In this document: positions 3,997-29,890 of the stretch, one piece after another
Layout of the letters: each line of letters opens with the position of its first letter
Position numbering within the stretch: position 1 is the first letter of the stretch
Position numbers and translations under genes: made by a program
Notes under the pieces: generated by a model
What the model was told of the DNA's origin: nothing
The model's database searches: none
The model's input: the letters and a program-made list of their open reading frames with translations, nothing else
DNA from: Acutalibacteraceae bacterium
GTDB lineage: Bacteria > Bacillota > Clostridia > Oscillospirales > Acutalibacteraceae
Direction of reading: 5' to 3'
Assembly: GCA_045602865.1 (NCBI GenBank)
Contig: JAZSCI010000017.1
Location: forward strand, 1-31,780
DNA: 31,780 bases

Positions 3997-6900
3997 TTAT
4001 TTAAACTTAATTTTGAAGGTTTTTATCTCAAAGGGCTTGAAGGTCGCCGCAAAGGTATCACCCTCGAAGGGCATAGCCACATCCTCTTCTTCAAGAAGAT
4101 TACATTCACTAAGCTCTTTTATAGCACCGCAAAGCTTAAAGGTTGCGGAAATTTTACTGTTCCAGGTTTCATAAGCACGGACAATAATTGCATCACTGTC
4201 CTCTGCAACCTTAACAGTCTCTATAACAACATTATCTGCATCGCAGCTGATAAATGAATATTCAGCAGGTAAAGCACCCTCATTCTTTTCGCTGAACACT
4301 GTGTAAAGAGGGAAGTTTACATTATAGCCCTGTTTGACAACATCCGAATCATTTACTCTGCCCTTATGAGGATAGATTGAGAAGGAGAAGGAATGATGCT
4401 CTCTGTCCTGAATATGATTGGGGTTGGTAGCACATCTGAAAAGCGTGGGGCGGATATGTCCGTCCTTAACATCACAACCGTACTTACAGTCATTGATTAC
4501 TGAAAGTCCGAAGCCGTTATCAGAAAGGTCTGCCCATTTGTGCATAGACACCTCAAACTGTGCAAAATCCCATGTGGTATTTGTTGTTGTGGAGCGCTCC
4601 ACATTACCGAACTGAATATCAAAGGTTGCCTTAACCGCATTTACATCAACAGGGTAATCCGCCTTGAGAACAACGTGATCCTCGTGCCAATCTGCCTCAT
4701 AATCAACATCAATTCTGTCAAGCTCTGAATATACACAATAATACTCGGTAAATGTAGAATTACGGAAGGCTCTGTCAACCTTATACACTGCACGTACAGG
4801 GCCCTTCTCCACAAGCTCTGCAGATTTGAACTCAAGCTCCCATACCTTTTCCTCGAAATAGCATTTGATATCCCAAGCCTCGTGGTTATGAGGTCTGTCC
4901 TGATATGCTCTTACCTTACCCACACATTCACCCTCAGGAGCAACACTTCTGCCTGTAGGCTTGTGAATAAGACTTGTTATATTTCCGTCATCCCCAAAGG
5001 TAAGCGAGAAATACTTTGTATCGGCAGCCTTTTCGGTTGCATTGACAGAAGCTTTACCCGAAGGTACTGCAGCAGACACCTTAACACTTGTGTAGCCCTT
5101 TGCAGGAACTGAAGCCACAAACACAATTTTACCGTCAAAGGTTTTCTGGTAGGGAATCTCTTCTCCGTTAATATCAAAGAGAGAAAATTCTCCCTCAAGG
5201 GGACAATCGCAAACAACTGCATCTTTTCTGTTAAAGCCGGTTGTATTGAAAACAATAAGGCTGTCATTTTCTACATTAATAGCCGAAGAAATAGCTCTCT
5301 GAGCCTTTGCGGTCATATCGCAGCCTTCCCTGAGCACCTTCTCATAATCCTCCCTGCTATCCTCGTAAACGGGAGCAATGGATGAGCCTGGAAGAATATC
5401 ATGGAACTGATTGAGAAGAATCAGCTTCCAGTTTTCAAGGAGCTTTTCCCTGGGATAAGAAAGCTCTGTTTCCTTAAACGCAATTGCAGAAAGAGTTTCT
5501 GTATCGTGATACAGACATTCACTCTTACGGTTATATTTTTTGTTTCTTGCCTGACTTGTGAGAGTACCTCTGTGGAATTCAAGATAAAGCTCTCCGCACC
5601 ATACGGGAAGTCTTTTGTTTGAGCTGACCTTTTCATCAAGGTGTCGGAAGAAGTCAAGAGAGGTTGACTGCTTTACAACAGGACAGCCCTGAATACCCTT
5701 TGCCATTCTTCTGCCGTATTCGAGCATTTCAATTGTGGGGCCGCCGCCTCCGTCACCGAAGCCGTATGACATAAGATAATCCTTTGAAAGATCCTTCTGG
5801 GAATATCTCTTGTAGCCACCTAAAACATAAAGAGGTCTGAGCTTACTGTTATATGTTGTCTGCCAATTTTTCCTTTCATCGGCAGTAACGTGGCAGCTTG
5901 GCGGGAAGTGAGAAAGCACCTCTGTTCCGTCAATACCTCTCCACTTGAAGGTATCATAAGGGAATTTATTGTATTCGTTCCAGCTGATTTTTGTGGTCAT
6001 AAAATAGTCCATACCGCATTTCTTTATAAGCTGGGGAATTGCGGCAGAGTAGCCGAAAACATCGGGAAGCCACATAATCTTATTATCCACACCGAACTCA
6101 TCACGGAAGAAGCGCTTACCTACCATAAACTGGCGTACAAGAGCCTCACCTGAGGAAACATTGGTATCAGCCTCAACCCACATACTTCCTTCAGGCTCCC
6201 ATTTGCCCTCCTTCACCTTTTCCTTGATTCGTTCAAAAACCTCGGGATAATCCTGCTTCACATAATCGTAAAGCTGTGCCTGAGAGGACATAAAAATATA
6301 CTCAGGATATTCCTCCATAAATTTAAGAACGGTAGAGAAGGAACGACAAGCCTTATCGCGGCTCTGTCTGAGTCTCCAGAGCCATGCCACATCAATGTGA
6401 GTGTGACCTACACACCAGGCAGTAGCCTCCTCAAAGCGACCGTAAAGATTTTCGTCAAGATACTTTGATGCCTCTATAGCCGACTCTCTGAAAAACTGTC
6501 TGTCATTGGTATCTATATCAAGAATATTGCATGCTTCATTAAGTGCCTTAAGGATATTGATTCTCGCATCATCATCCTCGCCCTTGTATTTAGCCACCTT
6601 GAGAGGTGTAAGCAAATCGAAATATGTACCGAATGCCACATCATCCATAACCTGAAGCTTAGCACCCATCTGTATTTCGCCCTTCCATTCCCAATCATCG
6701 GAATAGGCATTGATAGCGATATCAAGCTCCTCACCGCCTTGGGCACACTCGGTAAGTGTAACATACTGGTGGTTACTGTCACTGCCCTGAACTACTTTAC
6801 CGTTTACGAAAATAATAAACTGCGGGTTTACCTCTTCTCTCCATGCTCTGGCATAAGGCTTAATGCTGTATAAAACGTGCTCACCCTTGAATTTTTCGGG

Positions 6901-7158
6901 TATTTTCACCTTTTGCCTGAACCAGCAATAGCATTCACGGTAGCCCCAATAATCCTTGTTTGCGGCAAAGGGAGTCCACTCACCTTTGTCAATATCCTCT
7001 ATAGAATACTGTCCGTCACGGAACAGAAAATCTCCTGTATCAACACTGTCAACAATAACAAACTTTGCATACATATCATTGAGAATCCGATTTATGCGTC
7101 CGCTAATCATATAGCGCTCACTGTTTTTGTCGTGAAAATCGACTTCAAAATGTGCCAT
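3997..7158 (-). CDS. Alpha-mannosidase, GH38 (cytoplasmic, no signal peptide)
   Basis: 1053 aa. GHTHIDVAWLW, WLPDVFGYS (nucleophile Asp), FGDGGGGPT, GELYLEFHRGT, LNQFHDILPGSSI and C-terminal FKPFEIKT. Confidence 0.95.
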   Translation of the reverse strand: MAHFEVDFHDKNSERYMISGRINRILNDMYAKFVIVDSVDTGDFLFRDGQYSIEDIDKGEWTPFAANKDYWGYRECYCWFRQKVKIPEKFKGEHVLYSIKPYARAWREEVNPQFIIFVNGKVVQGSDSNHQYVTLTECAQGGEELDIAINAYSDDWEWKGEIQMGAKLQVMDDVAFGTYFDLLTPLKVAKYKGEDDDARINILKALNEACNILDIDTNDRQFFRESAIEASKYLDENLYGRFEEATAWCVGHTHIDVAWLWRLRQSRDKACRSFSTVLKFMEEYPEYIFMSSQAQLYDYVKQDYPEVFERIKEKVKEGKWEPEGSMWVEADTNVSSGEALVRQFMVGKRFFRDEFGVDNKIMWLPDVFGYSAAIPQLIKKCGMDYFMTTKISWNEYNKFPYDTFKWRGIDGTEVLSHFPPSCHVTADERKNWQTTYNSKLRPLYVLGGYKRYSQKDLSKDYLMSYGFGDGGGGPTIEMLEYGRRMAKGIQGCPVVKQSTSLDFFRHLDEKVSSNKRLPVWCGELYLEFHRGTLTSQARNKKYNRKSECLYHDTETLSAIAFKETELSYPREKLLENWKLILLNQFHDILPGSSIAPVYEDSREDYEKVLREGCDMTAKAQRAISSAINVENDSLIVFNTTGFNRKDAVVCDCPLEGEFSLFDINGEEIPYQKTFDGKIVFVASVPAKGYTSVKVSAAVPSGKASVNATEKAADTKYFSLTFGDDGNITSLIHKPTGRSVAPEGECVGKVRAYQDRPHNHEAWDIKCYFEEKVWELEFKSAELVEKGPVRAVYKVDRAFRNSTFTEYYCVYSELDRIDVDYEADWHEDHVVLKADYPVDVNAVKATFDIQFGNVERSTTTNTTWDFAQFEVSMHKWADLSDNGFGLSVINDCKYGCDVKDGHIRPTLFRCATNPNHIQDREHHSFSFSIYPHKGRVNDSDVVKQGYNVNFPLYTVFSEKNEGALPAEYSFISCDADNVVIETVKVAEDSDAIIVRAYETWNSKISATFKLCGAIKELSECNLLEEEDVAMPFEGDTFAATFKPFEIKTFKIKFK

Positions 7159-8835: not shown

Positions 8836-8862
8836 TTTTCGGAATAATATCCTACAAAAACG

Positions 8863-8896
8863 AAACGCGTTGTGTTCATTTGAACATAACGCGTTT
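8863..8896. terminator. Hairpin between convergent guaB and E2-like gene, likely terminator
   Basis: AAACGCGTTGTGTTCA / TGAACATAACGCGTTT inverted repeat; the T-rich tail is better on the minus strand. Confidence 0.75.
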
Positions 8897-8953: not shown

Positions 8954-9883
8954 TTAAGCATTTTCGTTAAGAATAAGCTCAGGATTTTTGAAAAACTCCT
9001 CCATTTTTGTAAGGAAAGGTCTTACTTCGCCGAAATCCAATGCTCTGTGGTCGAAAACAATGTTAATGGGAAGAATTGTTCTGATTTCGATCTTCTCGTT
9101 TCCATCCTCATCCTTCACTACAACAGGCTTTCTCTGTAATGTACCGATACCGATAACACAAATCTGAGGAGGAATAACCATAAGCATTGCAACCTCACCT
9201 GAAAGACCTCGGGTATCTGCACCTACATTAGAAACAGTTATTGTACCCTGCTTAAGATCCTTACGGGTAATCTTCTCTGTATCAGGTATAGCCTTATACG
9301 CCTTCTTCTCCGCACCCTTAAGTCTTACGATTCTGTGCTTCTTATTGGTATTAGCACCGTAAAGGCGCTTGATAGCCTTAAGTATATGTCCCTTTTTCAG
9401 CTTATCAATTGTGTCGTGGAAGGAAACAGAATACAGAGCCTCTACAAGATTTGTCTTTTCAAGGCGGCGGTTAATATCTGCCTGATACTCTGCTATATCC
9501 TTAAGTGTCTTGTTACCCATATCCTTCATAGTAATTGTCATCATATTACCATCAGGAAGAATCCAGGGAACAGAAATATCAATATTATCAAACACAGTAA
9601 CCTTACCTCTTACGAGACCTCTCTCATAATGCATATGTGCATTAATAACAGGGTCAACCTCTATCGCCTCAGCAATAGCCTTGAGAAGCACCGCATTGAG
9701 CGTGATCTTCGGTCCCTCATCTGTGTTATGAACAGCCTGGAACTTCTTAAATTCATCCATAAAATGAGTTACATCAGGTTCATACTGATAACTAACGTGT
9801 GGTATATTCTGCCAACTCTCAGTTGTCATATTGGCAACAATTTTTCTTTGTATGCCGAATCTTGTAACACTTTTTACGCCCAT
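8954..9883 (-). CDS. Stand-alone 2-oxoacid dehydrogenase E2-type acyltransferase catalytic domain (no lipoyl or E3-binding domain)
   Basis: 309 aa starting directly at the catalytic core (QRKIVANMTTESWQNIPH). GTITVSNVG and FDHRALD motifs present; no lipoyl-Lys motif. Strong SD (AAAGGA) upstream. Confidence 0.85.
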   Translation of the reverse strand: MGVKSVTRFGIQRKIVANMTTESWQNIPHVSYQYEPDVTHFMDEFKKFQAVHNTDEGPKITLNAVLLKAIAEAIEVDPVINAHMHYERGLVRGKVTVFDNIDISVPWILPDGNMMTITMKDMGNKTLKDIAEYQADINRRLEKTNLVEALYSVSFHDTIDKLKKGHILKAIKRLYGANTNKKHRIVRLKGAEKKAYKAIPDTEKITRKDLKQGTITVSNVGADTRGLSGEVAMLMVIPPQICVIGIGTLQRKPVVVKDEDGNEKIEIRTILPINIVFDHRALDFGEVRPFLTKMEEFFKNPELILNENA

Positions 9884-9923
9884 AGTTTTCCTTTCATCCT
9901 TTCGGGAAATATATAATATTATT

Positions 9924-10823
9924 TTATTTATTGTAATTATCGAAATAACCTACCGCATTAAGCTCTGCAACGAGAGCATCTGCCTCCTCCTTAGTAAAGG
10001 GAGTGCCGGGATAAGCAATTTCTCCGCTATCTATACCAAGACAACCAAGAACATACTTGATTGAACGAAGACAACCATGCTTAAGTAAAATTTCAATAAC
10101 ATGATTAACCTTGTACTGTGTTGCTCTTGCACCATCAATATCTCCTGCGGCAAACTGATTGAAAAGCTTCACATACTCACCACACATAAGGTTGTATGTA
10201 GAGCCGATACCTGCATCTGCGCCCATAGCAAGACCGCAGATAAGCATTTCATCAGGTCCGTTAATAACATTGATATCTCCACCGTTAAGCTCCTTGATTC
10301 TGTGCATTGCATAGTAATCACAAAGTGTGAACTTAACACCTACAACACCATCTACCTTGATAAGCTGATCCATAAGATTAACGGGATCACTTGTAAGAAG
10401 TCCCTGTGCATAGGCTACAACGGGAAGCTCGGAAGCATCTGCGATGCGCTTGTAGTAATCAACAATTTCAGCATCGTTATACTTGTAATAGAAATTAGGA
10501 ACAACACTGGATATACCATCACAACCACATTCCTTAGAATGCTTGGCAAGCTCGATTGCCTCAAAGGGAGAAGCAGCGCCTACGTGATTGATGATCTTAC
10601 CTCTTCCGTTATTTGCTTCAACACAGGTCTCGGCAATAGTCTTACGCTGCTGAGTTGTAAGAACAGGACCTTCACCGGTAGAGCCGCAAATATAAAAGCC
10701 GGCTGCACCCTGGTTGTAGTTTCTGTCCATATTTGCTCTGATTGAGTCCTTCATAATAGTACCGTCAGCCTTGAAGGGGCTGATGAGAGCGGGCATAATA
10801 CCTTTAAAAATTACATTTGACAT
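9924..10823 (-). CDS. nanA: N-acetylneuraminate lyase (DHDPS/NAL family)
   Basis: 299 aa. GSTGEG, Schiff-base GVKFT, and NAL-type G-P-D-E and IGSTYN substrate motifs rather than DapA-type ones. Confidence 0.78.
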   Translation of the reverse strand: MSNVIFKGIMPALISPFKADGTIMKDSIRANMDRNYNQGAAGFYICGSTGEGPVLTTQQRKTIAETCVEANNGRGKIINHVGAASPFEAIELAKHSKECGCDGISSVVPNFYYKYNDAEIVDYYKRIADASELPVVAYAQGLLTSDPVNLMDQLIKVDGVVGVKFTLCDYYAMHRIKELNGGDINVINGPDEMLICGLAMGADAGIGSTYNLMCGEYVKLFNQFAAGDIDGARATQYKVNHVIEILLKHGCLRSIKYVLGCLGIDSGEIAYPGTPFTKEEADALVAELNAVGYFDNYNK

Positions 10824-10879
10824 AATATCACCTTCGGATAAGATTTTTACAAGAAAAATTTTACAAAATAACCAGTATA

Positions 10880-10908
10880 ATTATATCAAACCCACAAATG
10901 AATGTCAA
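10880..10908 (-). promoter_or_regulatory. Consensus sigmaA promoter of nanA-E2 unit
   Basis: TTGACA-17 bp-TATAAT with extended TG; perfect consensus. Confidence 0.85.
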
Positions 10909-11000
10909 TTCACATTTTTATAATATTACATCCATATTAAGAAAATGTTAACATGCACAACTCTACACTTATTAAAATTGTTCATTATGCACAAGCATCG

Positions 11001-11050
11001 AAAAAACAAAAACGAGCTATGAAAGCTCATCGTTTTTCATAGCTCATTTT
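11001..11050 (-). terminator. Intrinsic terminator of the 601-aa gene
   Basis: GAGCTATGAAA / TTTCATAGCTC stem followed by T-runs on the minus strand. Confidence 0.8.
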
Positions 11051-11062
11051 GAATTAAAAGTA

Positions 11063-12868
11063 TTATCTCTCTATTGATTTTGCAGAAACAATGTTGCTAT
11101 CGCTCGTCTTGTAGGTAATATCAACCTTGTCACCTACATTCAATATAACAACAGACTCATCCTCTGCCGCAGTAATTGAATAATAAGTCTTACCGCCATC
11201 AATAGCAATATAGTATGTGGTATTTCCGTTTACAACTGCCTGTCTGATATCTGTAATAGCGCCGCTTACAGTTTTGATTTCTGCTGATGCTGAAGAGTCT
11301 TCACCCTCAGAATCTGAACCGGCAAGAGCATCGGGAAGAACCGCATTATAGTTAATATTGAGAACCTTCTTGGTACTTGCTTTTACCTTGTTTACGTAGG
11401 ATTTCAGACAAGCCTCAAGGTCGGGGTTAGCATCATCCTCACTTCTTACAGCATCCTGAACACGCTCAACACTTACCATAGCATAGCTCTTAACAACCTC
11501 ATTATCCTTAAGAGCCATAAAGTAGGTTGCCTCGCCATCAAGATTAAGAAGAACAGGGAAGGTAGCCTGCCAGCCCTTATCGGAAACGATACCCTCTGCA
11601 GAGGTCTGTGCACCGTGCTCGGTTGTACCTGAAATCTTCTGGAACACTGCTTCCTTTGTACGCTGGTTAATAATAGCAAAGCCTACAATAGAGTCATCGT
11701 TTGTAACAGATGTAACACCGGTATAAAGCCAAACATCATCACCGGTTGCAATATAGCTGGCACCATCAGTGGTGGAAACAACTCCGCTCTGTCCGATATA
11801 TCCGTTGATGAAGCCGCCTGAATATTTACCGTAGTAGTTGTACTGCTGAACAAGTAAATCCTCGGAATAGATCTGGTCAATCCACTGGATGCTCTCATCA
11901 TTCTTAATCTGCTCAAGGCTATAATACTTAACATTATTCTTATCACAAGCATCAACAAGAACAACACCGATAACATCGGAACCGCCAACAAGACCTACAG
12001 TCTTATCAATACGCTCACAAACCCAGTAGGGATGTCCCTTTTCATCAATTTCAAGTGAAGGTGTACCGAACATATAGGTGGGGTATGCAAAACGAAGAAC
12101 ACGACTGAGCTTCTCGTTAAAGAATTCACTTGTGGAAACCTGAATATTGGGAAGTCCCATTTCCTCAAGAACTACTGCATTTGCTTCCTGGGTATACATA
12201 TTAACTGCAAGGTATGCAGGAAGACCGTCACGGGTATTTTTTATATACTTGAATATATCGCCGTATTTAAGAGGGAATATTCTGTAGGGATTCTCGTTAT
12301 AGTTAATCTGTGTGGAATATGTTTCATCGATAACGAACTGTGAAACCCACTCGGAAAGGTCACCAAGCTTTTTGTTAGCAAGGTTAAGTGCCACGTTTTT
12401 ATCAATCATAGGCACACTGCTGAAATCCTCAAGACTGGTAATTGTAGTAATACTCTTTTCAGTCTCACCGAAATTTTCCTCGTTTACGGTGATAATCTCA
12501 CTGTAATCCCTTGCACGGAAAAGTGCAGCAGAGGTAAGATAACCGACACCGAGGATAAGTGCAAACACAAGACCTATTGCCACAGGGGGAATTGCCTGTC
12601 TTTTTACATAGGTAATATACTCGGGCTTGATAAATGCCTTTGAGGTAAGAAAAATCATACCAATGTAAATCGCAAGAACAATTGCTATGAAATAGTAGAA
12701 CTCAAGAGCCTTAAAGTTAATAGCAGGAAGCATAACATAGTAAGCTACTGCGCCACCGATAACGGTAACAATAAGACTGATGATAATCTTCAGAATTTTT
12801 CTGTCGGGTGGAATAACAACCTCTTTAGGTCTGCCCTTTCCCGAAAAATCAACTTTGATGGGATCCAT
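11063..12868 (-). CDS. Membrane-anchored protein of unknown function (3 N-terminal TM segments, large extracellular region)
   Basis: 601 aa, own SD (AAGGAG), promoter and terminator. Three hydrophobic helices, then a beta-rich region; no catalytic motif recognised. Confidence 0.7.
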   Translation of the reverse strand: MDPIKVDFSGKGRPKEVVIPPDRKILKIIISLIVTVIGGAVAYYVMLPAINFKALEFYYFIAIVLAIYIGMIFLTSKAFIKPEYITYVKRQAIPPVAIGLVFALILGVGYLTSAALFRARDYSEIITVNEENFGETEKSITTITSLEDFSSVPMIDKNVALNLANKKLGDLSEWVSQFVIDETYSTQINYNENPYRIFPLKYGDIFKYIKNTRDGLPAYLAVNMYTQEANAVVLEEMGLPNIQVSTSEFFNEKLSRVLRFAYPTYMFGTPSLEIDEKGHPYWVCERIDKTVGLVGGSDVIGVVLVDACDKNNVKYYSLEQIKNDESIQWIDQIYSEDLLVQQYNYYGKYSGGFINGYIGQSGVVSTTDGASYIATGDDVWLYTGVTSVTNDDSIVGFAIINQRTKEAVFQKISGTTEHGAQTSAEGIVSDKGWQATFPVLLNLDGEATYFMALKDNEVVKSYAMVSVERVQDAVRSEDDANPDLEACLKSYVNKVKASTKKVLNINYNAVLPDALAGSDSEGEDSSASAEIKTVSGAITDIRQAVVNGNTTYYIAIDGGKTYYSITAAEDESVVILNVGDKVDITYKTSDSNIVSAKSIER

Positions 12869-12944
12869 TTTTAAAACTCCTTTAATACAGCAACGAAACA
12901 GTATGCACCAAAACCATACCGCTCCGTATACCTTAATCCTTTAC

Positions 12945-17358: not shown

Positions 17359-19815
17359 TCAGCCTTCAAGATAAACACTTTTAAGCTTCTCTCTTGTAAG
17401 CGCGCCGACTACTCCGTCAGCATCCAGACCTTCCGCCTCCTGGAAGGCTATAACCGCCCCCAGAGTTCCCGGTCCGAAGCTTCCGTCTACATCACTATTG
17501 GTAAGATACCCCGTTTTGTACAGATGCCACTGCAACCATTTCACCACATCTCCGCTATCACCCTGCCTTATTGTAACAGTGGGCTCTGCATAGGGGCAAG
17601 GCTCTTTTTCTTCTGCGGAGCCATTATCAACAGCTATGTAATCGCTGTGAACAAAACCGGTATACTTGGTTCCGTTATACTCTGTTTCCACCTTGTACCA
17701 CACTCCCGAAGCATCAAGAATTGTTACGGGATGTCCCTCCGGGATTTGCACAAGAGAAGCAGCACTTGTACCGGCAGAGCTTCTCACATTCAGTAAATCT
17801 GCCGTTACATAACCGATTTCGCCGTTTGCTTCTCCCGTAGTCTTTACAGACACCGCCTGAGAATACTCCGAATAGAATTTAATATCGTTAAAGGTATAAT
17901 ATGCTCTTATCTTATATTTATACGAGGTTCCGCTTCTTGCAGAGGAATCTGTAAATTTGTTCTTGCTTGCAGTTCCCGAAAGGTAATACTTTCCGGTAGC
18001 ATAGTTATATCTGTACACCTCATAGCCCGTACACTCAACACCACTCCAGGAAAGGGACACGCTTGTATCTGTTTTGGATGAAACTGTCAAATCAGAAGGC
18101 ACTGCGGGAGCAGATGCGGCATACACAATACTACTGAAAGCCGTATATATAAGCTCCCCCTTACTATCGTGCTTGTAAGCCCTGATTTTGTATTTCGCCT
18201 TTTGGGATGGAGAAAATGAAGAATCCTTATAAGTAAGAGCATCAACCGTTTTTATGCGTTTGTACTCTTTTTCGGTGTAATCATACTTATAAATCTGATA
18301 CTTTTCTGCACCCTCCACAGCTTCCCAGCTAAGAGTTACAGAGCCTGTGGTGTAGCTTTTGCAGGAAGCAGCAGGCTTGGAAGCCGCAAATCTGCCTTCA
18401 CTTGTAACATCCGCAAAAGGCATATTACGGAAAACGGGTATAGAGAACACTTTTTTCTGACCAAGTACGCCTGCCGCCTTATAAGCTTTATATTTGGAAT
18501 TAGCTTCACTTGCCGCCGCCCTTACATTAGCCATATACTCGTGATCATAAAGGCTGTCCGATGCGGGATTAACGTTAAACTTCTGTAAGTATCCCGTAAA
18601 CTGATAGGTGGAGAAGGAATCCACTATATACTTTGCTCCGTTATAAATACTGAGATAGGGATTTGTCCACGGTCTTCCGTAGGATGTATAAAGCTTTGCA
18701 TTCTCCTTTTTAATATATCCTATATAGTTAGTACCTGAAACAATTGCTCTTATTTTATAAAATTCACCTTTGGCACCTATATAGTATATTTCACTACCTG
18801 CGGGGATTTTCACAAGCACATCCGATGTTGTGGATGCACTCTTATACATAGAAACGCTTCTCTCAACAGACATATATCCGTTAGCCCATTCAAGACCGTC
18901 ACGCACACCCGTATATGCACCGATATTGTAGTAATTGTATATGCCGTAGAAGGGCGCATTCACTCCACTTGAGCCACCTGCATAGGAAGCCGATGAAGAA
19001 CCAACCTCCTGAACAATTTTCGATGCAAGGAAATAAGCGCTTATTCCGTGATCCCTTGCCGCCTTCATAATAGCCTCTGAATATGTTACGGCAACCCCAT
19101 CATCTTTATAGGTTTTTTCGTTGCCGTTTCCGTTGAGATAGGTAATTTCCGATTTGTACATCCAAGTGTTTTTCAGGATCGCCTCAACACCCTCAATAGT
19201 ATGGGACTCGTTAAAGGCAGTGCTTTCAAACTGGAATATATACTCCTCCTTAAGGAAGTTACGGGGATCCATATAATAAGCAACTGCAGTTTCAGAAGCA
19301 CTTACCCAGTTGGGATACTCCATAATAACTCCGTGGCATTTACTGCAGCTGCACTTATATTCTGCAGAAACAACATTCTCAATCAGTTGCTGACTGTGAG
19401 GAGTTCTTTCCCCCTTTACGGAAGCCTCCCAGTCAAGATTTGTGATAAAGGGAACAAATTCCCATTGGGGATATTTCTCATGCAGTTCTGTAAGATACTC
19501 TACATAGGAGGCAGGAAATCCTGCATCCAAAAGGCTTTGCTCATAATACTCTATACTGTTAGCCATTTTAAGTAAAGCTACAACATCATAAAGAGTGATC
19601 TGTCCGTCACCATCCATATCGGAAGCCTTCTTCTGTGCTGAGGAAGGCTTCTTCATTTTTGAAGAAAACTTAAGCACAAGTCTGGCATCCTCCGAGTTCA
19701 CCTGACCATCACCATTGATGTCACCAAGCAACGCAGCACTACTTACAACAGTCATATTAACAAAAAGAGTCAGTAATATAAGCAAAACGGCTATAATTCT
19801 GTAAAAAGCTTTCAT
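17359..19815 (-). CDS. Secreted modular peptidoglycan hydrolase: signal peptide, dockerin, GH73-like glucosaminidase with inserted SH3b, 2x Fn3, SH3b, PG_binding_1
   Basis: GDINGDGQVNSEDARL..DMDGDGQITLYDV dockerin. YYMDPRNFL, KIVQEVG, YNYYNIGA, QKFNV and HEYMANV as in Acp/Acd-type glucosaminidases. Fn3 patterns (LSWEAVEGAEKYQIY, LSWSGVECTGYEVY), LNVRSSAGTS, and GDSGDVVKWLQ..DGSFGPGT..FQ..GL.ADGVVG. Confidence 0.88.
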   Translation of the reverse strand: MKAFYRIIAVLLILLTLFVNMTVVSSAALLGDINGDGQVNSEDARLVLKFSSKMKKPSSAQKKASDMDGDGQITLYDVVALLKMANSIEYYEQSLLDAGFPASYVEYLTELHEKYPQWEFVPFITNLDWEASVKGERTPHSQQLIENVVSAEYKCSCSKCHGVIMEYPNWVSASETAVAYYMDPRNFLKEEYIFQFESTAFNESHTIEGVEAILKNTWMYKSEITYLNGNGNEKTYKDDGVAVTYSEAIMKAARDHGISAYFLASKIVQEVGSSSASYAGGSSGVNAPFYGIYNYYNIGAYTGVRDGLEWANGYMSVERSVSMYKSASTTSDVLVKIPAGSEIYYIGAKGEFYKIRAIVSGTNYIGYIKKENAKLYTSYGRPWTNPYLSIYNGAKYIVDSFSTYQFTGYLQKFNVNPASDSLYDHEYMANVRAAASEANSKYKAYKAAGVLGQKKVFSIPVFRNMPFADVTSEGRFAASKPAASCKSYTTGSVTLSWEAVEGAEKYQIYKYDYTEKEYKRIKTVDALTYKDSSFSPSQKAKYKIRAYKHDSKGELIYTAFSSIVYAASAPAVPSDLTVSSKTDTSVSLSWSGVECTGYEVYRYNYATGKYYLSGTASKNKFTDSSARSGTSYKYKIRAYYTFNDIKFYSEYSQAVSVKTTGEANGEIGYVTADLLNVRSSAGTSAASLVQIPEGHPVTILDASGVWYKVETEYNGTKYTGFVHSDYIAVDNGSAEEKEPCPYAEPTVTIRQGDSGDVVKWLQWHLYKTGYLTNSDVDGSFGPGTLGAVIAFQEAEGLDADGVVGALTREKLKSVYLEG

Positions 19816-26540: not shown

Positions 26541-27629
26541 ATGAAAAAAGCATTGGCAATTATTACGGTTATATCACTGCTTATAGCCACTATGCCCGTG
26601 GTGTTCGGCGCACAGTACGGTCGTTTTATGTACACAGAGAATACCGATGGCACTATAAACATCAGCCGCTACTATCCCGATGAGGCTGAAACAGGGAATA
26701 TTGTTATTCCGTCAAAAATAAACGGCAAAAAGGTTACAACAATCGGTTATCAGGCATTCAAGGAAAGAAGCATTGTGAAAACAGTGAAAATTCCCGACAC
26801 GGTTACCACCATCGGAACAGAGGCTTTCTACGGCTGCAGCAATCTTACCGAGGTAACTATAGGAGAAAATGTATCCACAATAGGCGCCTACGCCTTTAAC
26901 TCCTGCAAAGCCCTGACAGAAATAGATCTTGTAAATACAAAATACATAGGAGAAATGAGCTTCTACGGCTGCTCTTCTCTTGCCTCAGTATATTTCGGTG
27001 AGAATCTGGAATTCATACTTAAGAGTGCTTTTGCAAAATGCACCGCCCTTATTGATATTGAATTTCCTGAAACATTGAAATATATCGGCGAGTTCGCTTT
27101 CACACAATGCTCAGCTCTCCCTGCCATAATCCTTCCTGACAGGTTGGATTTCATCGGCACGAGCGCCTTCAAGGACTGCATAGCTGCAGAAAAGGTAGTT
27201 TTCGGCTCCGGTGAGCTTACAATTTCTCCCTACGCCTTTGAAAACTGCATTATGCTTACACAGGTTTACATCCCAAACAATGTTATTTCCGTGGGATTAG
27301 GTGCTTTCGAATTCAGAAACTCCAACGAAACGACAAGCTCTCATCCCGTGATTATCCGTTGTCACAAGGACTCCGCCGCATTTTCTTATGCTATAGAAAA
27401 CGGAGCCCCCGCCTATATAATCGAGCTTGATAAAACTATCGAGCACTTCGGAGATATCGATGGCAACGGAGTCACCAACAATACAGATGCCCGACTTGCT
27501 CTGCGATATGCTTCCGGTATTACCACGGTACCCAAATCCTCCGAGCTGTATCTGACAGGCGACCTGAATCAGAACGACACATTCGATCTTGAGGATGTAA
27601 AGGCTATTATGAAAATAGCGAACCTGTGA
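26541..27629 (+). CDS. Secreted BspA-type (LRR_5) leucine-rich repeat protein with C-terminal dockerin
   Basis: Signal peptide, IVIPSKINGKKVTTIG cap, repeated IG..AF..C..L..(V/I).(I/L)P units, then GDIDGNGVTNNTDARL..GDLNQNDTFDLEDV. Confidence 0.9.
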   Translation: MKKALAIITVISLLIATMPVVFGAQYGRFMYTENTDGTINISRYYPDEAETGNIVIPSKINGKKVTTIGYQAFKERSIVKTVKIPDTVTTIGTEAFYGCSNLTEVTIGENVSTIGAYAFNSCKALTEIDLVNTKYIGEMSFYGCSSLASVYFGENLEFILKSAFAKCTALIDIEFPETLKYIGEFAFTQCSALPAIILPDRLDFIGTSAFKDCIAAEKVVFGSGELTISPYAFENCIMLTQVYIPNNVISVGLGAFEFRNSNETTSSHPVIIRCHKDSAAFSYAIENGAPAYIIELDKTIEHFGDIDGNGVTNNTDARLALRYASGITTVPKSSELYLTGDLNQNDTFDLEDVKAIMKIANL

Positions 27630-28921: not shown

Positions 28922-29890
28922 TCAGGATGACACCTCCGTTATGTCGGGGTAGTCCTCTATAGCTCTGAATTTCTCTGCAAAGGACGACCAGTTGTTTGCC
29001 ACTTTATAAGAATCAACGAGAGCTTCAGGAACATATAAATAGCCGTTACCGTTCGCAACGGGCGTACCCGAAAACGCACTCACATTATCAAGAATACACA
29101 CCTCAGATGAACGAATTATAACAGTTTCAAGGGAAGCGCACCCATCAAAGGCAGCCGCCTCAATTTTTGCAACTGCAGGAAGGTCAACCCTTGCAAGAGC
29201 TGAGGCATTCTGAAGTGCTTTTGCACCCATATTCACCAGACTGTTCAATTCAACTCCTACAAGATTCGGATTATTGGACAGAGCACCCGAATATATTCTT
29301 TCAACCGAAGGCAGGATTGCGTGTGAAAATCTGCAATTACCGAAGCTCTGAAGACCGAGACTGGTGACTTCAGGCAGATTAACCACCGTTATATTTGTAC
29401 AACCGCAGAAGGCGTATCCTCCTGTTTTTTTAATTTTCGTATCAAAAAGCACTCCTGATAAGCTTCTGTCAATAAGAGAATAATAATCTTTATTTTCTAC
29501 ATTAACATCTATCATCACCGAGGAATACACCTGATTCTCTTCCGGTGTAAGCATCATGATTCCGTTGGAGATAATACTTAGTTCTTCATCAATTTCCTCT
29601 TTTACGGGAATTGCAACATCAAGGTCGATGCGCGAAAAGGTCTTGCCTTCCTCGGGAACAAGACTATATTCGCCGTTTTTGTTTATCTCACCGGAAATGC
29701 TGACTTCTTCTTTAACGGGAACATCTACATTTACCGTAGCATGTGAGAGCACGCTGCCTGCTTCGGGGTAAATCTCATATTCACCGTTTTCTGTAACCTC
29801 CAGATGCTTCCACTCTTTTTTTGCCGAAGTATCTACTACTCCACCGCTTGCCAGACCGAGCAGATATCCGTTTTCAAATTCTGTATTCAT
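28922..29890 (-). CDS. Phage fibre-like protein: three ~37-aa repeats + BspA-type LRR
   Basis: Repeats (EVTENGEYEIYPE / EINKNGEYSLVPE / SIISNGIMMLTPE), then AF.GC..L..V.LP LRR units and a C-terminal YLYVPEALVDSYKVANNWS cap. Confidence 0.72.
   Translation of the reverse strand: MNTEFENGYLLGLASGGVVDTSAKKEWKHLEVTENGEYEIYPEAGSVLSHATVNVDVPVKEEVSISGEINKNGEYSLVPEEGKTFSRIDLDVAIPVKEEIDEELSIISNGIMMLTPEENQVYSSVMIDVNVENKDYYSLIDRSLSGVLFDTKIKKTGGYAFCGCTNITVVNLPEVTSLGLQSFGNCRFSHAILPSVERIYSGALSNNPNLVGVELNSLVNMGAKALQNASALARVDLPAVAKIEAAAFDGCASLETVIIRSSEVCILDNVSAFSGTPVANGNGYLYVPEALVDSYKVANNWSSFAEKFRAIEDYPDITEVSS

What the first reader, a model, noticed from the sequence alone, without database searches (positions are those of the whole stretch)
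8954..10823. Sialic-acid lyase co-transcribed with a lipoyl-less E2-type acyltransferase: candidate new acyl-transfer step in sialic acid metabolism
Seen: a perfect sigmaA promoter drives nanA, followed 40 nt later, with no terminator, by a 309-aa gene made only of the E2 catalytic core. It keeps the His (DHRALD) and Ser (TVSNVG) motifs. The window has no lipoyl domain, E1, E3, nanE, nanK or sialidase. Known: E2 cores share fold and His mechanism with chloramphenicol acetyltransferase, which O-acetylates small molecules from acetyl-CoA; mucosal sialic acids are often O-acetylated and are normally de-acetylated by esterases such as NanS. Inference: without a lipoyl arm this protein needs another acyl partner. 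It could move O-acetyl groups from O-acetyl-Neu5Ac to CoA, conserving energy before lyase cleavage, or acetylate the sugar product or a nonulosonate. I do not know of a described system like this.
Basis: partly seen in the sequence, partly recalled or inferred. Interest (0 to 1): 0.72.

Follow-up and report, generated by a model that had tools for sequence, protein, structure and literature searches.

The report
Lipoyl-free E2-type acyltransferase, optional nanA partner
A cattle-gut Clostridia genome has a real two-gene operon, a sialic-acid-lyase-like gene followed by a stand-alone E2-type acyltransferase, but the promoter belongs to the acyltransferase and the lyase is an optional passenger, so a dedicated sialic-acid role is unlikely and the acyltransferase's substrate remains unknown.

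Summary
On the minus strand, a 12/12 sigma-70 promoter precedes a NanA-like gene (9924-10823). A 40-nt spacer without a terminator follows, then a 309-aa E2 catalytic core (8954-9883, "E2L") with the His279 and Ser218 motifs, then a terminator.

No lipoyl domain, GcvH, lipoate ligase or true E1 was found in the genome. Five relatives carry only biotin carriers.

The sialic-acid reading is weakly supported:
- nanA sits upstream of E2L in 15 of 64 related species and at none of 36 E2L loci from about 28 other genera.
- nanA was lost repeatedly, leaving remnants, while E2L was always kept.
- The promoter is E2L's own. A palindrome over its -35 box (GTGAAT-N4-ATTCAC) matches the ArgR "ARG box" consensus. 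It is present in 46 of 59 loci, with or without nanA.
- In the same genus this palindrome also precedes gdhA and an aminotransferase/aldolase operon.

E2L belongs to an uncharacterised family of roughly 300-aa proteins. It has an E2 fold plus a conserved three-helix insert, and a trimer is predicted.

Best reading: a lipoate-independent, CoA-dependent acyltransferase with an unknown acceptor, probably tied to nitrogen or amino-compound metabolism. First readers of this scan noted the same pair on other genomes.

The parts
10880..10908 (-). Sigma-70-type promoter: -35 TTGACA, 17-nt spacer, TG-extended -10 TATAAT
   Evidence: 12 of 12 matches. The homologous promoter is found in 46/59 related loci, with or without nanA.
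10898..10913 (-). Palindromic operator GTGAATTGACATTCAT over the -35 box (family consensus GTGAAT-N4-ATTCAC), ARG-box-like
   Evidence: The same palindrome occurs 1-3 times per genome in 23/26 same-genus genomes, against 0-1 for the reversed control in 7/26. The ARG box consensus TNTGAATWWWWATTCANW is quoted in PMC5291005. An ArgR gene is present in the genome.
9924..10823 (-). NanA-like class I aldolase (299 aa, P0002), optional first cistron; Schiff-base Lys164 at 10332..10334
   Evidence: PF00701 scores 213 bits. NCBIfam NanA PRK04147 scores 222.5, below its cut-off of 281. The best solved relatives are all N-acetylneuraminate lyases (E 6e-46). The residues of E. coli NanA S47, T48, Y110, Y137, K165, T167, G189, D191, E192 and S208 are kept in the alignment.
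9884..9923 (-). 40-nt spacer with ribosome-binding site, no terminator
8954..9883 (-). E2L: stand-alone E2-type acyltransferase catalytic core (309 aa, P0001)
   Evidence: PF00198 is the only Pfam hit. The AF2 model has pLDDT 94.4. The top fold matches are E2p/E2o cores. A homotrimer is predicted at 0.92 against a best control of 0.00.
9278..9454 (-). About 59-aa three-helix insert (residues 144-202) between the two halves of the E2 core
   Evidence: It splits the Pfam and PDB matches. The model shows helices at 146-163, 167-179 and 190-198. It is conserved across the family alignment A1. Residues 169-183 lie in the predicted subunit interface.
9047..9049 (-). Codon of catalytic His279 (DHRALD)
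   Evidence: D278, H279 and R280 are nearly invariant in 52 family members.
9230..9232 (-). Codon of Ser218 (TVSNVG), the E2 oxyanion Ser/Thr position
   Evidence: Ser or Thr is kept in nearly all displayed family members; N219 and G221 are nearly invariant.
8855..8896 (-). Intrinsic terminator of the operon (15-bp stem followed by a U-run), shared back-to-back with the convergent IMPDH gene
   Evidence: Equivalent terminators lie directly after E2L in relatives L018 and L130.
11011..11031 (-). Terminator of the upstream 601-aa gene, which isolates the operon

Best explanation
The unit is promoter + operator, then (nanA), then E2L, then a terminator. E2L is a lipoate-independent member of the E2/CAT acyltransferase superfamily. 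It is probably a trimer in which His279 of one subunit and Ser218 of the next line an active-site channel, and it moves an acyl group between CoA and an acceptor that is not a lipoyl arm (inferred). The family-specific three-helix insert sits at the subunit interface and probably reshapes the acceptor side (inferred). The promoter belongs to E2L. It carries an ARG-box-like palindrome over the -35 box, so transcription is probably repressed by ArgR or a similar regulator, together with gdhA and an aminotransferase/aldolase operon (inferred from motif and regulon). This points to nitrogen or amino-compound metabolism. The NanA-like gene is an old but dispensable first cistron. It is likely a true sialic-acid-type aldolase of an N-glycan-foraging cattle-gut bacterium. 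It shares E2L's promoter without E2L depending on it.
For: Operon anatomy. E2 fold, intact catalytic residues and conserved insert. Trimer: score 0.92 against a best control of 0.00, a mark reached by 21/30 solved homo-pairs and 0/23 single chains; the job used 3 copies, unlike the calibration, and solved E2 trimers may be remembered. No lipoate system; in five relatives the only Biotin_lipoyl proteins carry EAMKM inside oxaloacetate-decarboxylase-type clusters. The family is made of stand-alone proteins of about 300 aa: 86 representatives at E<1e-30. nanA is optional: 15/64 loci; scattered on the E2L tree with 12 changes, at least 6 forced; pair identities co-vary at rho 0.70; short nanA 5' and 3' end remnants in nanA-less leaders; no P0002 ortholog elsewhere in 10 nanA-less genomes. 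The promoter and palindrome go with E2L: 46/59 loci, also in L129 and L130, but absent from L131, which has nanA without E2L. Regulon. ArgR gene. ARG box consensus. E2L is followed by its own terminator, so YdjC downstream is a separate unit.
Against: No acceptor is identified and nothing was assayed. The regulator is not shown to be ArgR: the central four bases at E2L (TGAC) are not all A/T, the arg operon of the genus shows only imperfect boxes upstream of argG, and the palindrome is missing upstream of E2L in other genera. The nanA-E2L pair stays together through rearrangements (this window, L038, L059/L060, L129). It also persists to 59% NanA identity. E2L still co-occurs with NanA-like genes within GH38+ genomes (OR 5.5, p 0.009, not corrected for kinship). 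So some functional tie to nanA is not excluded. Eight of ten nanA-less genomes keep a different NanA-like paralog elsewhere.
Confidence: 0.55

Rival explanations
1. One reading: E2L performs an acyl-transfer step of sialic-acid catabolism. It would either move O-acetyl groups between O-acetyl-Neu5Ac or O-acetyl-ManNAc and CoA, or acylate the sugar product.
For: There is tight co-transcription with a NanA-like gene in 15/64 species and in more distant lineages. The pair stays linked after rearrangements. The neighbourhood often holds YdjC deacetylase and GH38 mannosidase. E2L co-occurs with NanA-like genes at OR 11, and at OR 5.5 within GH38+ genomes. The genome has sialidase-like and AGE genes.
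Against: E2L is kept where nanA is deleted (49/64 loci), and it stands alone in about 28 other genera. In the family sample, 16/25 E2L genomes lack any NanA-like gene. The promoter and operator are E2L's and are shared with gdhA. YdjC is a separate transcription unit. Ester-to-thioester transfer is thermodynamically uphill (my knowledge).
Confidence: 0.15
2. E2L is an acyl-CoA:amino-acid N-acyltransferase of arginine/glutamate metabolism, for example an unconventional N-acetylglutamate synthase or an ornithine/arginine N-acyltransferase, repressed by ArgR.
For: An ARG-box-like operator lies over the -35 box. The same motif sits at gdhA and at class-III aminotransferase operons. ArgR is present. 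The arg operon of the genus (argGHCJBDF) has no separate argA within the stretch read.
Against: ArgJ is present in the own genome and in 23/25 E2L-bearing genomes, so E2L does not replace ArgJ. Only 25/150 genera have E2L while 116/150 have ArgJ. The regulator's identity is unproven. The motif is absent upstream of E2L in other genera.
Confidence: 0.15
3. E2L is an ordinary E2 core completed in trans by a separately encoded lipoyl protein plus E1 and E3.
For: Full E2 fold and catalytic residues. The MAG is only 91% complete.
Against: No lipoyl domain, GcvH, lipoate ligase or true E1 was found in the genome. Five relatives, two of them single-contig assemblies, have only biotin carriers and one BirA-sized ligase each. 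There is no subunit-binding domain.
Confidence: 0.03
4. E2L is mainly structural, a trimer-based cage or scaffold, with catalysis secondary.
For: A trimer is predicted. The C-terminal NPELIL resembles the E2 inter-trimer 'knob' (the comparison is from my knowledge).
Against: The near-invariant DHR, N219, G221 and Ser/Thr218 argue for selection on catalysis.
Confidence: 0.05

Closest known systems
Catalytic (core) domain of dihydrolipoyl acyltransferase E2 of 2-oxoacid dehydrogenase complexes (e.g. PDB 1b5s, 7q5r, 1eaa)
   Same: The fold matches (Foldseek E 1e-18, TM by target 0.7-0.8). It has the DHRxxD His motif, the Ser/Thr-Asn-x-Gly motif, a predicted trimer with an inter-subunit active site, and a C-terminal hydrophobic tail.
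   Different: It has no lipoyl or subunit-binding domains. The host has no lipoate system, E1 or E3. A conserved insert of about 59 aa (three helices) lies between the core halves. It is usually encoded as an isolated gene.
Chloramphenicol acetyltransferase and other CAT-superfamily small-molecule acyltransferases
   Same: It is a trimeric His-dependent acyl-CoA transferase that needs no swinging arm, so this is the closest model for how E2L may work.
   Different: There is no sequence membership (no CAT Pfam hit at E<=0.01). The acceptor is unknown. The insert is absent from CAT.
N-acetylneuraminate lyase NanA (E. coli 1nal; 8u8w)
   Same: It has the class I aldolase fold, and in the alignment to E. 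coli NanA the Schiff-base Lys, catalytic Tyr, GSTGE, GxDE and GSTYN motifs are all kept.
   Different: It scores below both NCBIfam NanA cut-offs. No nanE/nanK/transporter cluster is nearby. It is transcribed from an ARG-box-like promoter together with E2L. It is frequently deleted in sister species.
ArgR/AhrC regulon operators (ARG boxes)
   Same: The palindrome core TGAAT-N4-ATTCA matches 14 of 16 specified positions of the E. coli consensus. It overlaps the -35 box, as repressor sites do. An ArgR gene is present.
   Different: It is a single, near-perfect box with fixed G/C flanks. The targets seen are gdhA, an aminotransferase/aldolase operon and E2L, not the arg biosynthetic operon. Binding is untested.

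Membership tests
2-oxoacid dehydrogenase E2 component | Acyltransferase catalytic domain (PF00198) with catalytic His and Ser/Thr | tested here: met
   PF00198 scores 126.5 bits. H279 and S218 are conserved across the family. The fold matches E2 cores.
2-oxoacid dehydrogenase E2 component | One or more N-terminal lipoyl domains | tested here: not met
   The catalytic domain starts at about residue 10 and no PF00364 hit was found. No Biotin_lipoyl match was found anywhere in the genome.
2-oxoacid dehydrogenase E2 component | Peripheral subunit-binding domain and E1/E3 partners | tested here: not met
   PF00198 is the only Pfam hit. The E1_dh matches are transketolase and DXS cross-hits. E3 was not searched separately.
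2-oxoacid dehydrogenase E2 component | Host lipoylation machinery (LplA/LipB, GcvH) | tested here: not met
   No match in the own genome. Five relatives have only EAMKM biotin carriers and one BirA-sized ligase each.
2-oxoacid dehydrogenase E2 component | Trimeric building block | tested here: met
   Prediction only: 0.92 against a best control of 0.00. Solved E2 trimers may be remembered by the model.
N-acetylneuraminate lyase (NanA) | DHDPS/NAL fold with Schiff-base Lys, Tyr137, Ser47/Thr48 | tested here: met
N-acetylneuraminate lyase (NanA) | Sugar-binding GxDE motif and Ser208 | tested here: met
   NGPDE at residue 188 and GSTYN at 207 align to E. coli D191/E192/S208.
N-acetylneuraminate lyase (NanA) | Curated equivalog score | tested here: not met
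   PRK04147 scores 222.5 against a cut-off of 281; TIGR00683 scores 198.8 against 382. A paralog in a sister genome does pass, at 354.6.
N-acetylneuraminate lyase (NanA) | Cleavage of Neu5Ac to ManNAc + pyruvate | not testable with these tools
   Needs an enzyme assay.
N-acetylneuraminate lyase (NanA) | Companion catabolic genes (nanE/nanK or AGE route, sialidase) | tested here: inconclusive
   No NanE above cut-off in the own genome or in 12 genus mates. An AGE + APH-kinase cluster and sialidase-like BNR proteins lie elsewhere in the genome. None is adjacent.
Chloramphenicol acetyltransferase family | Sequence membership (CAT Pfam family) | tested here: not met
   The Pfam scan returned only PF00198 at E<=0.01. 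The resemblance is at superfamily and mechanism level only.
ArgR/AhrC-controlled promoter | ARG box matching TNTGAATWWWWATTCANW at the promoter | tested here: met
   TGTGAATTGACATTCATT matches 14 of 16 specified positions.
ArgR/AhrC-controlled promoter | ArgR binding and arginine-dependent expression | not testable with these tools
   An ArgR gene is present. EMSA and expression data are lacking.

The most novel reading that the evidence does not exclude
E2L founds a lipoate-independent branch of the E2 acyltransferases, in which the helical insert replaces the lipoyl-arm entrance with a pocket for a soluble amino compound. Under an ArgR-type nitrogen signal it would couple CoA thioesters to amino-sugar or amino-acid metabolism. 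It might N-acylate glutamate, ornithine or an amino sugar, or exchange acetyl groups of sialic-acid-derived sugars with CoA.
Probability: 0.2. Interest if true: 0.75.

Novelty: new variant of a known kind. Interest (0 to 1): 0.5.

Why it matters
E2 cores are textbook lipoyl-dependent enzymes. Here is a conserved, apparently catalytic branch of them in gut anaerobes where no lipoate system was found: at least 86 sequence clusters, and 25 of 150 sampled genera of one family. Finding its acceptor would add a new reaction type to a classic fold. It would also annotate thousands of genes now mislabelled '2-oxo acid dehydrogenase subunit E2'. The shared operator with gdhA gives a concrete, testable handle (arginine or nitrogen control). 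The repeated loss of nanA is a caution against reading function from a single operon.

Tried and rejected
- Classical E2 completed in trans: rejected. No lipoyl, GcvH, LplA or E1 was found, and relatives have only biotin carriers.
- Conserved partners outside the genus: none among 36 loci.
- PG_binding_1 and YdjC as operon partners: rejected. A terminator and a new promoter follow E2L.
- The 225-aa gene that replaces E2L in L131: unrelated to E2L or to the PG-binding protein.
- E2L as a substitute for ArgJ: rejected. They co-occur in 23/25 genomes.
- Clear ARG boxes at the arg operon: only imperfect ones upstream of argG.
- The palindrome upstream of E2L in other genera: absent.
- Rex, CRP/FNR, cre and TnrA/GlnR consensus sites (recalled from memory): spacing or half-sites do not fit.
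- Literature: three full-text searches found no description of this family or pairing.
- Protein atlas: only unnamed E2-family clusters.
- Co-transcription from public RNA: two metatranscriptome runs hold a 201-nt contig inside nanA and a 258-nt contig inside E2L. None spans the junction, and DNA carry-over cannot be excluded.
Full report
**1. What is in the sequence**

Both genes lie on the minus strand.
- P0002 (9924..10823, 299 aa) is a DHDPS/NAL-family protein: PF00701 scores 213 bits.
- P0001, here called E2L (8954..9883, 309 aa), matches only PF00198. The match comes in two stretches, residues 12-141 and 202-305.
- A 12/12 sigma-70 promoter with a TG extension lies at 10908..10880.
- The upstream 601-aa gene ends in its own terminator at 11031..11011.
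- The nanA-E2L spacer is 40 nt and holds no minus-strand terminator.
- A 15-bp hairpin followed by a U-run lies about 55 nt after the E2L stop.

The unit is promoter, nanA-like gene, E2L, terminator.

**2. The organism and the lipoate question**

Related contigs are named Acutalibacteraceae or Oscillospiraceae MAGs from ruminant guts. The DNA occurs in bovine gut metagenomes. The window's genome is 2.04 Mb in 343 contigs and 91% complete.

It gave no match to Biotin_lipoyl, GCV_H or BPL_LplA_LipB. Its only E1_dh matches are weak cross-hits to a transketolase N subunit and a DXS-sized gene.

Because the MAG is incomplete, I checked five relatives that carry E2L, two of them single-contig assemblies. 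Each has one to three small Biotin_lipoyl proteins. All four that I read carry the biotin motif EAMKM and sit in oxaloacetate-decarboxylase-type clusters. Each genome also has one BirA-sized ligase. A classical dehydrogenase completed in trans is therefore very unlikely.

**3. The E2L protein and its family**

- In a library clustered at 50% identity, 86 representatives match at E<1e-30. Almost all of the full-length ones are stand-alone proteins of about 300 aa. Canonical E2s appear only at about 1e-18.
- In an alignment of 52 members, D278, H279, R280, N219 and G221 are nearly invariant, and position 218 is Ser or Thr.
- A profile of the family aligns to solved E2 cores as two halves. These are separated by an insert of about 59 residues that E2 cores lack.
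- The AlphaFold2 model is confident (pLDDT 94.4). It shows the insert as three helices, 146-163, 167-179 and 190-198.
- The best fold matches are E2p/E2o cores, with TM by target of 0.7-0.8.
- A homotrimer is predicted with score 0.92 against a best control of 0.00. That mark was reached by 21 of 30 solved homo-pairs and 0 of 23 single chains. This job used three copies, unlike the calibration, and solved E2 trimers may be remembered by the model.
- The predicted interface includes His279-Gly285 on one subunit. On the neighbouring subunit it includes the loop after Ser218 plus insert residues 169-183.

The catalytic machinery therefore looks intact, and the insert sits at the inter-subunit active-site region. 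The genome has a second, 28%-identical paralog on contig C136, next to HydF and an endonuclease.

**4. The NanA-like protein**

- Its nearest solved relatives are all N-acetylneuraminate lyases (E 6e-46 to 1e-34), ahead of DHDPS.
- In the alignment to E. coli NanA, S47, T48, Y110, Y137, K165, T167, G189, D191, E192 and S208 are kept.
- It scores below both NCBIfam NanA cut-offs: 222.5 against 281, and 198.8 against 382.
- The genome has no NanE above cut-off.
- It does have an AGE-family epimerase next to an APH-family kinase. It also has sialidase-like BNR proteins, one with an FRIP motif beside a GH38 mannosidase, and nine GH38 matches in all.

A genuine sialic-acid-type aldolase in an N-glycan forager is plausible but unproven.

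**5. Is the pairing conserved?**

- Among 64 species-level loci with an E2L of 45-90% identity, a NanA-like gene lies directly upstream (3-55 nt) in 15.
- The common synteny is a divergent ABC-DUF1854-ABC unit, then (nanA), E2L, a PG_binding_1 protein and YdjC.
- Reverse look-ups from NanA homologues found the pair again at 68% and 59% NanA identity. A 55% homologue has nanA but no E2L.
- On the E2L tree, nanA presence is scattered. It needs 12 changes, at least 6 of them forced, and is no more clustered than shuffled labels.
- NanA and E2L identities co-vary across the 15 pairs (Spearman 0.70).
- nanA-less leaders keep short (14-24 nt) matches to the 5' and 3' ends of nanA.

This is an old pair with repeated deletion of nanA.

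- Ten nanA-less genomes have no ortholog of P0002 elsewhere. Eight of them have a different NanA-like paralog at 31-35% identity. One of three paralogs tested passes the NanA equivalog cut-off.
- Outside this clade, 36 E2L loci from about 28 genera share no neighbour, and most are isolated genes.
- In 150 genera of the family, E2L co-occurs with NanA-like genes (OR 11, p 6e-5). It co-occurs equally with GH38 mannosidase (OR 13). Within GH38+ genomes the NanA association drops to OR 5.5 (p 0.009).
- These tests ignore kinship and overstate significance.

**6. The promoter is E2L's and carries an operator**

The region upstream of nanA in nanA+ loci is homologous to the region upstream of E2L in nanA- loci.

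In 46 of 59 loci (13/15 with nanA, 33/44 without) the promoter reads GTGAATTGACATTCAC-N-TATAAT. This is a perfect 6-4-6 palindrome centred on the -35 box. The window has one mismatch: GTGAATTGACATTCAT at 10913..10898. The palindrome is also present in the distant pairs L129 and L130. It is absent from L131, where nanA stands without E2L.

GTGAAT-N4-ATTCAC occurs 1-3 times per genome in 23 of 26 same-genus genomes. The reversed control occurs 0-1 times, in 7 of 26. Among the 23 loci fetched, it lies upstream of three kinds of gene:
- E2L, at 4 loci;
- a class-III aminotransferase + class II aldolase operon, at 5 loci, including the own genome at C12:3223;
- an NADP-specific glutamate dehydrogenase, at about 12 loci; one was checked against NCBIfam and passes the gdhA equivalog at 674.9 against a cut-off of 536.

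The core matches the ARG box of ArgR/AhrC, quoted as TNTGAATWWWWATTCANW in PMC5291005. An ArgR gene is present.

Caveats: the arg operon of the genus shows only imperfect boxes upstream of argG. E2L genes in other genera lack the palindrome. No binding data exist.

E2L is followed by its own terminator in relatives, so YdjC is a separate transcription unit.

**7. Reading**

Shown:
- a real two-gene operon;
- a catalytically intact, lipoyl-free E2 core with a family-specific insert;
- no lipoate system found in the host;
- nanA is optional;
- the promoter and operator belong to E2L and recur at nitrogen-metabolism genes.

Inferred:
- E2L is a CoA-dependent acyltransferase for a non-lipoyl acceptor;
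- it is controlled by ArgR or a similar regulator;
- it is not dedicated to sialic acid.

A role as a substitute for ArgJ is excluded by co-occurrence in 23/25 genomes. A priming N-acetylglutamate-synthase-like role remains only a guess.

**8. Expression**

Two gut metatranscriptome runs contain a 201-nt contig inside nanA and a 258-nt contig inside E2L. No contig spans the junction, and DNA carry-over cannot be excluded.

**9. Prior notes and literature**

First readers of this scan flagged the same pair on other genomes, and also orphan E2 cores, one of them 'under a palindromic operator'. None of these had been followed up. Three full-text searches found no paper describing the family or the pairing.

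Noticed in passing
Own genome contig C12:403-7352 (locus L140); palindrome at C12:3223-3238: Two GSA-aminomutase-like class-III aminotransferases, a double class II aldolase, a 255-aa unknown protein and split transketolase subunits form a divergent cluster. Its promoter carries the same GTGAAT-N4-ATTCAC palindrome, between the -10 box and the ribosome-binding site. The cluster is conserved in at least 7 genus mates. The pathway is unassigned.
   Followed up: partly
Loci L141, L143-L145, L147-L149, L153, L155, L157, L159, L160: The same palindrome lies about 200 nt upstream of NADP-glutamate dehydrogenase (gdhA) in about a dozen same-genus genomes. It is often divergent from a GH51-like arabinofuranosidase gene.
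   Followed up: partly
window 3997-7158 (-): A GH38 alpha-mannosidase lies just beyond the convergent IMPDH gene. In relative L129 the order is nanA-E2L-GH38 directly. The genome has nine GH38 matches, which suggests N-glycan foraging.
   Followed up: partly
Own genome contig C136:3814-4755: A second E2L paralog (313 aa, 28% identity, motif DHRIGGF lacking the His+4 Asp) lies downstream of HydG/HydF-like hydrogenase maturases and a lipoprotein-like endonuclease.
   Followed up: partly
Own genome contig C152:656-3578; also L131:8712-10452: An AGE-family epimerase, a CBM9_2-like protein and an APH-family kinase form a cluster. The latter two genes lie beside nanA-YdjC in a distant relative. This could be a route for ManNAc/GlcNAc.
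   Followed up: no
window 10823-9924 versus relatives: The window's nanA is on a long branch, 70-77% identical to all other paired nanA genes, although its E2L is 90% identical to the nearest relatives. The pair has also moved away from the usual ABC/YdjC flanks.
   Followed up: partly
window 11063-12868 (-): A 601-aa ORF with no Pfam match lies directly upstream of the operon and ends in a strong terminator.
   Followed up: no
window 17359-19815 (-): An 818-aa protein combines a type I dockerin with fn3, SH3 and PG_binding_1 domains, which hints at a cellulosome-like surface system.
   Followed up: no
L014/L015 about 9300-12930 and many of L017-L080: A prophage (HTH repressor, terminase, portal) is inserted just downstream of YdjC in about 18-20 related genomes, suggesting a recurrent integration site.
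   Followed up: no
window 26541-27629 (+) and 28922-29890 (-): Two BspA-type leucine-rich-repeat proteins.
   Followed up: no
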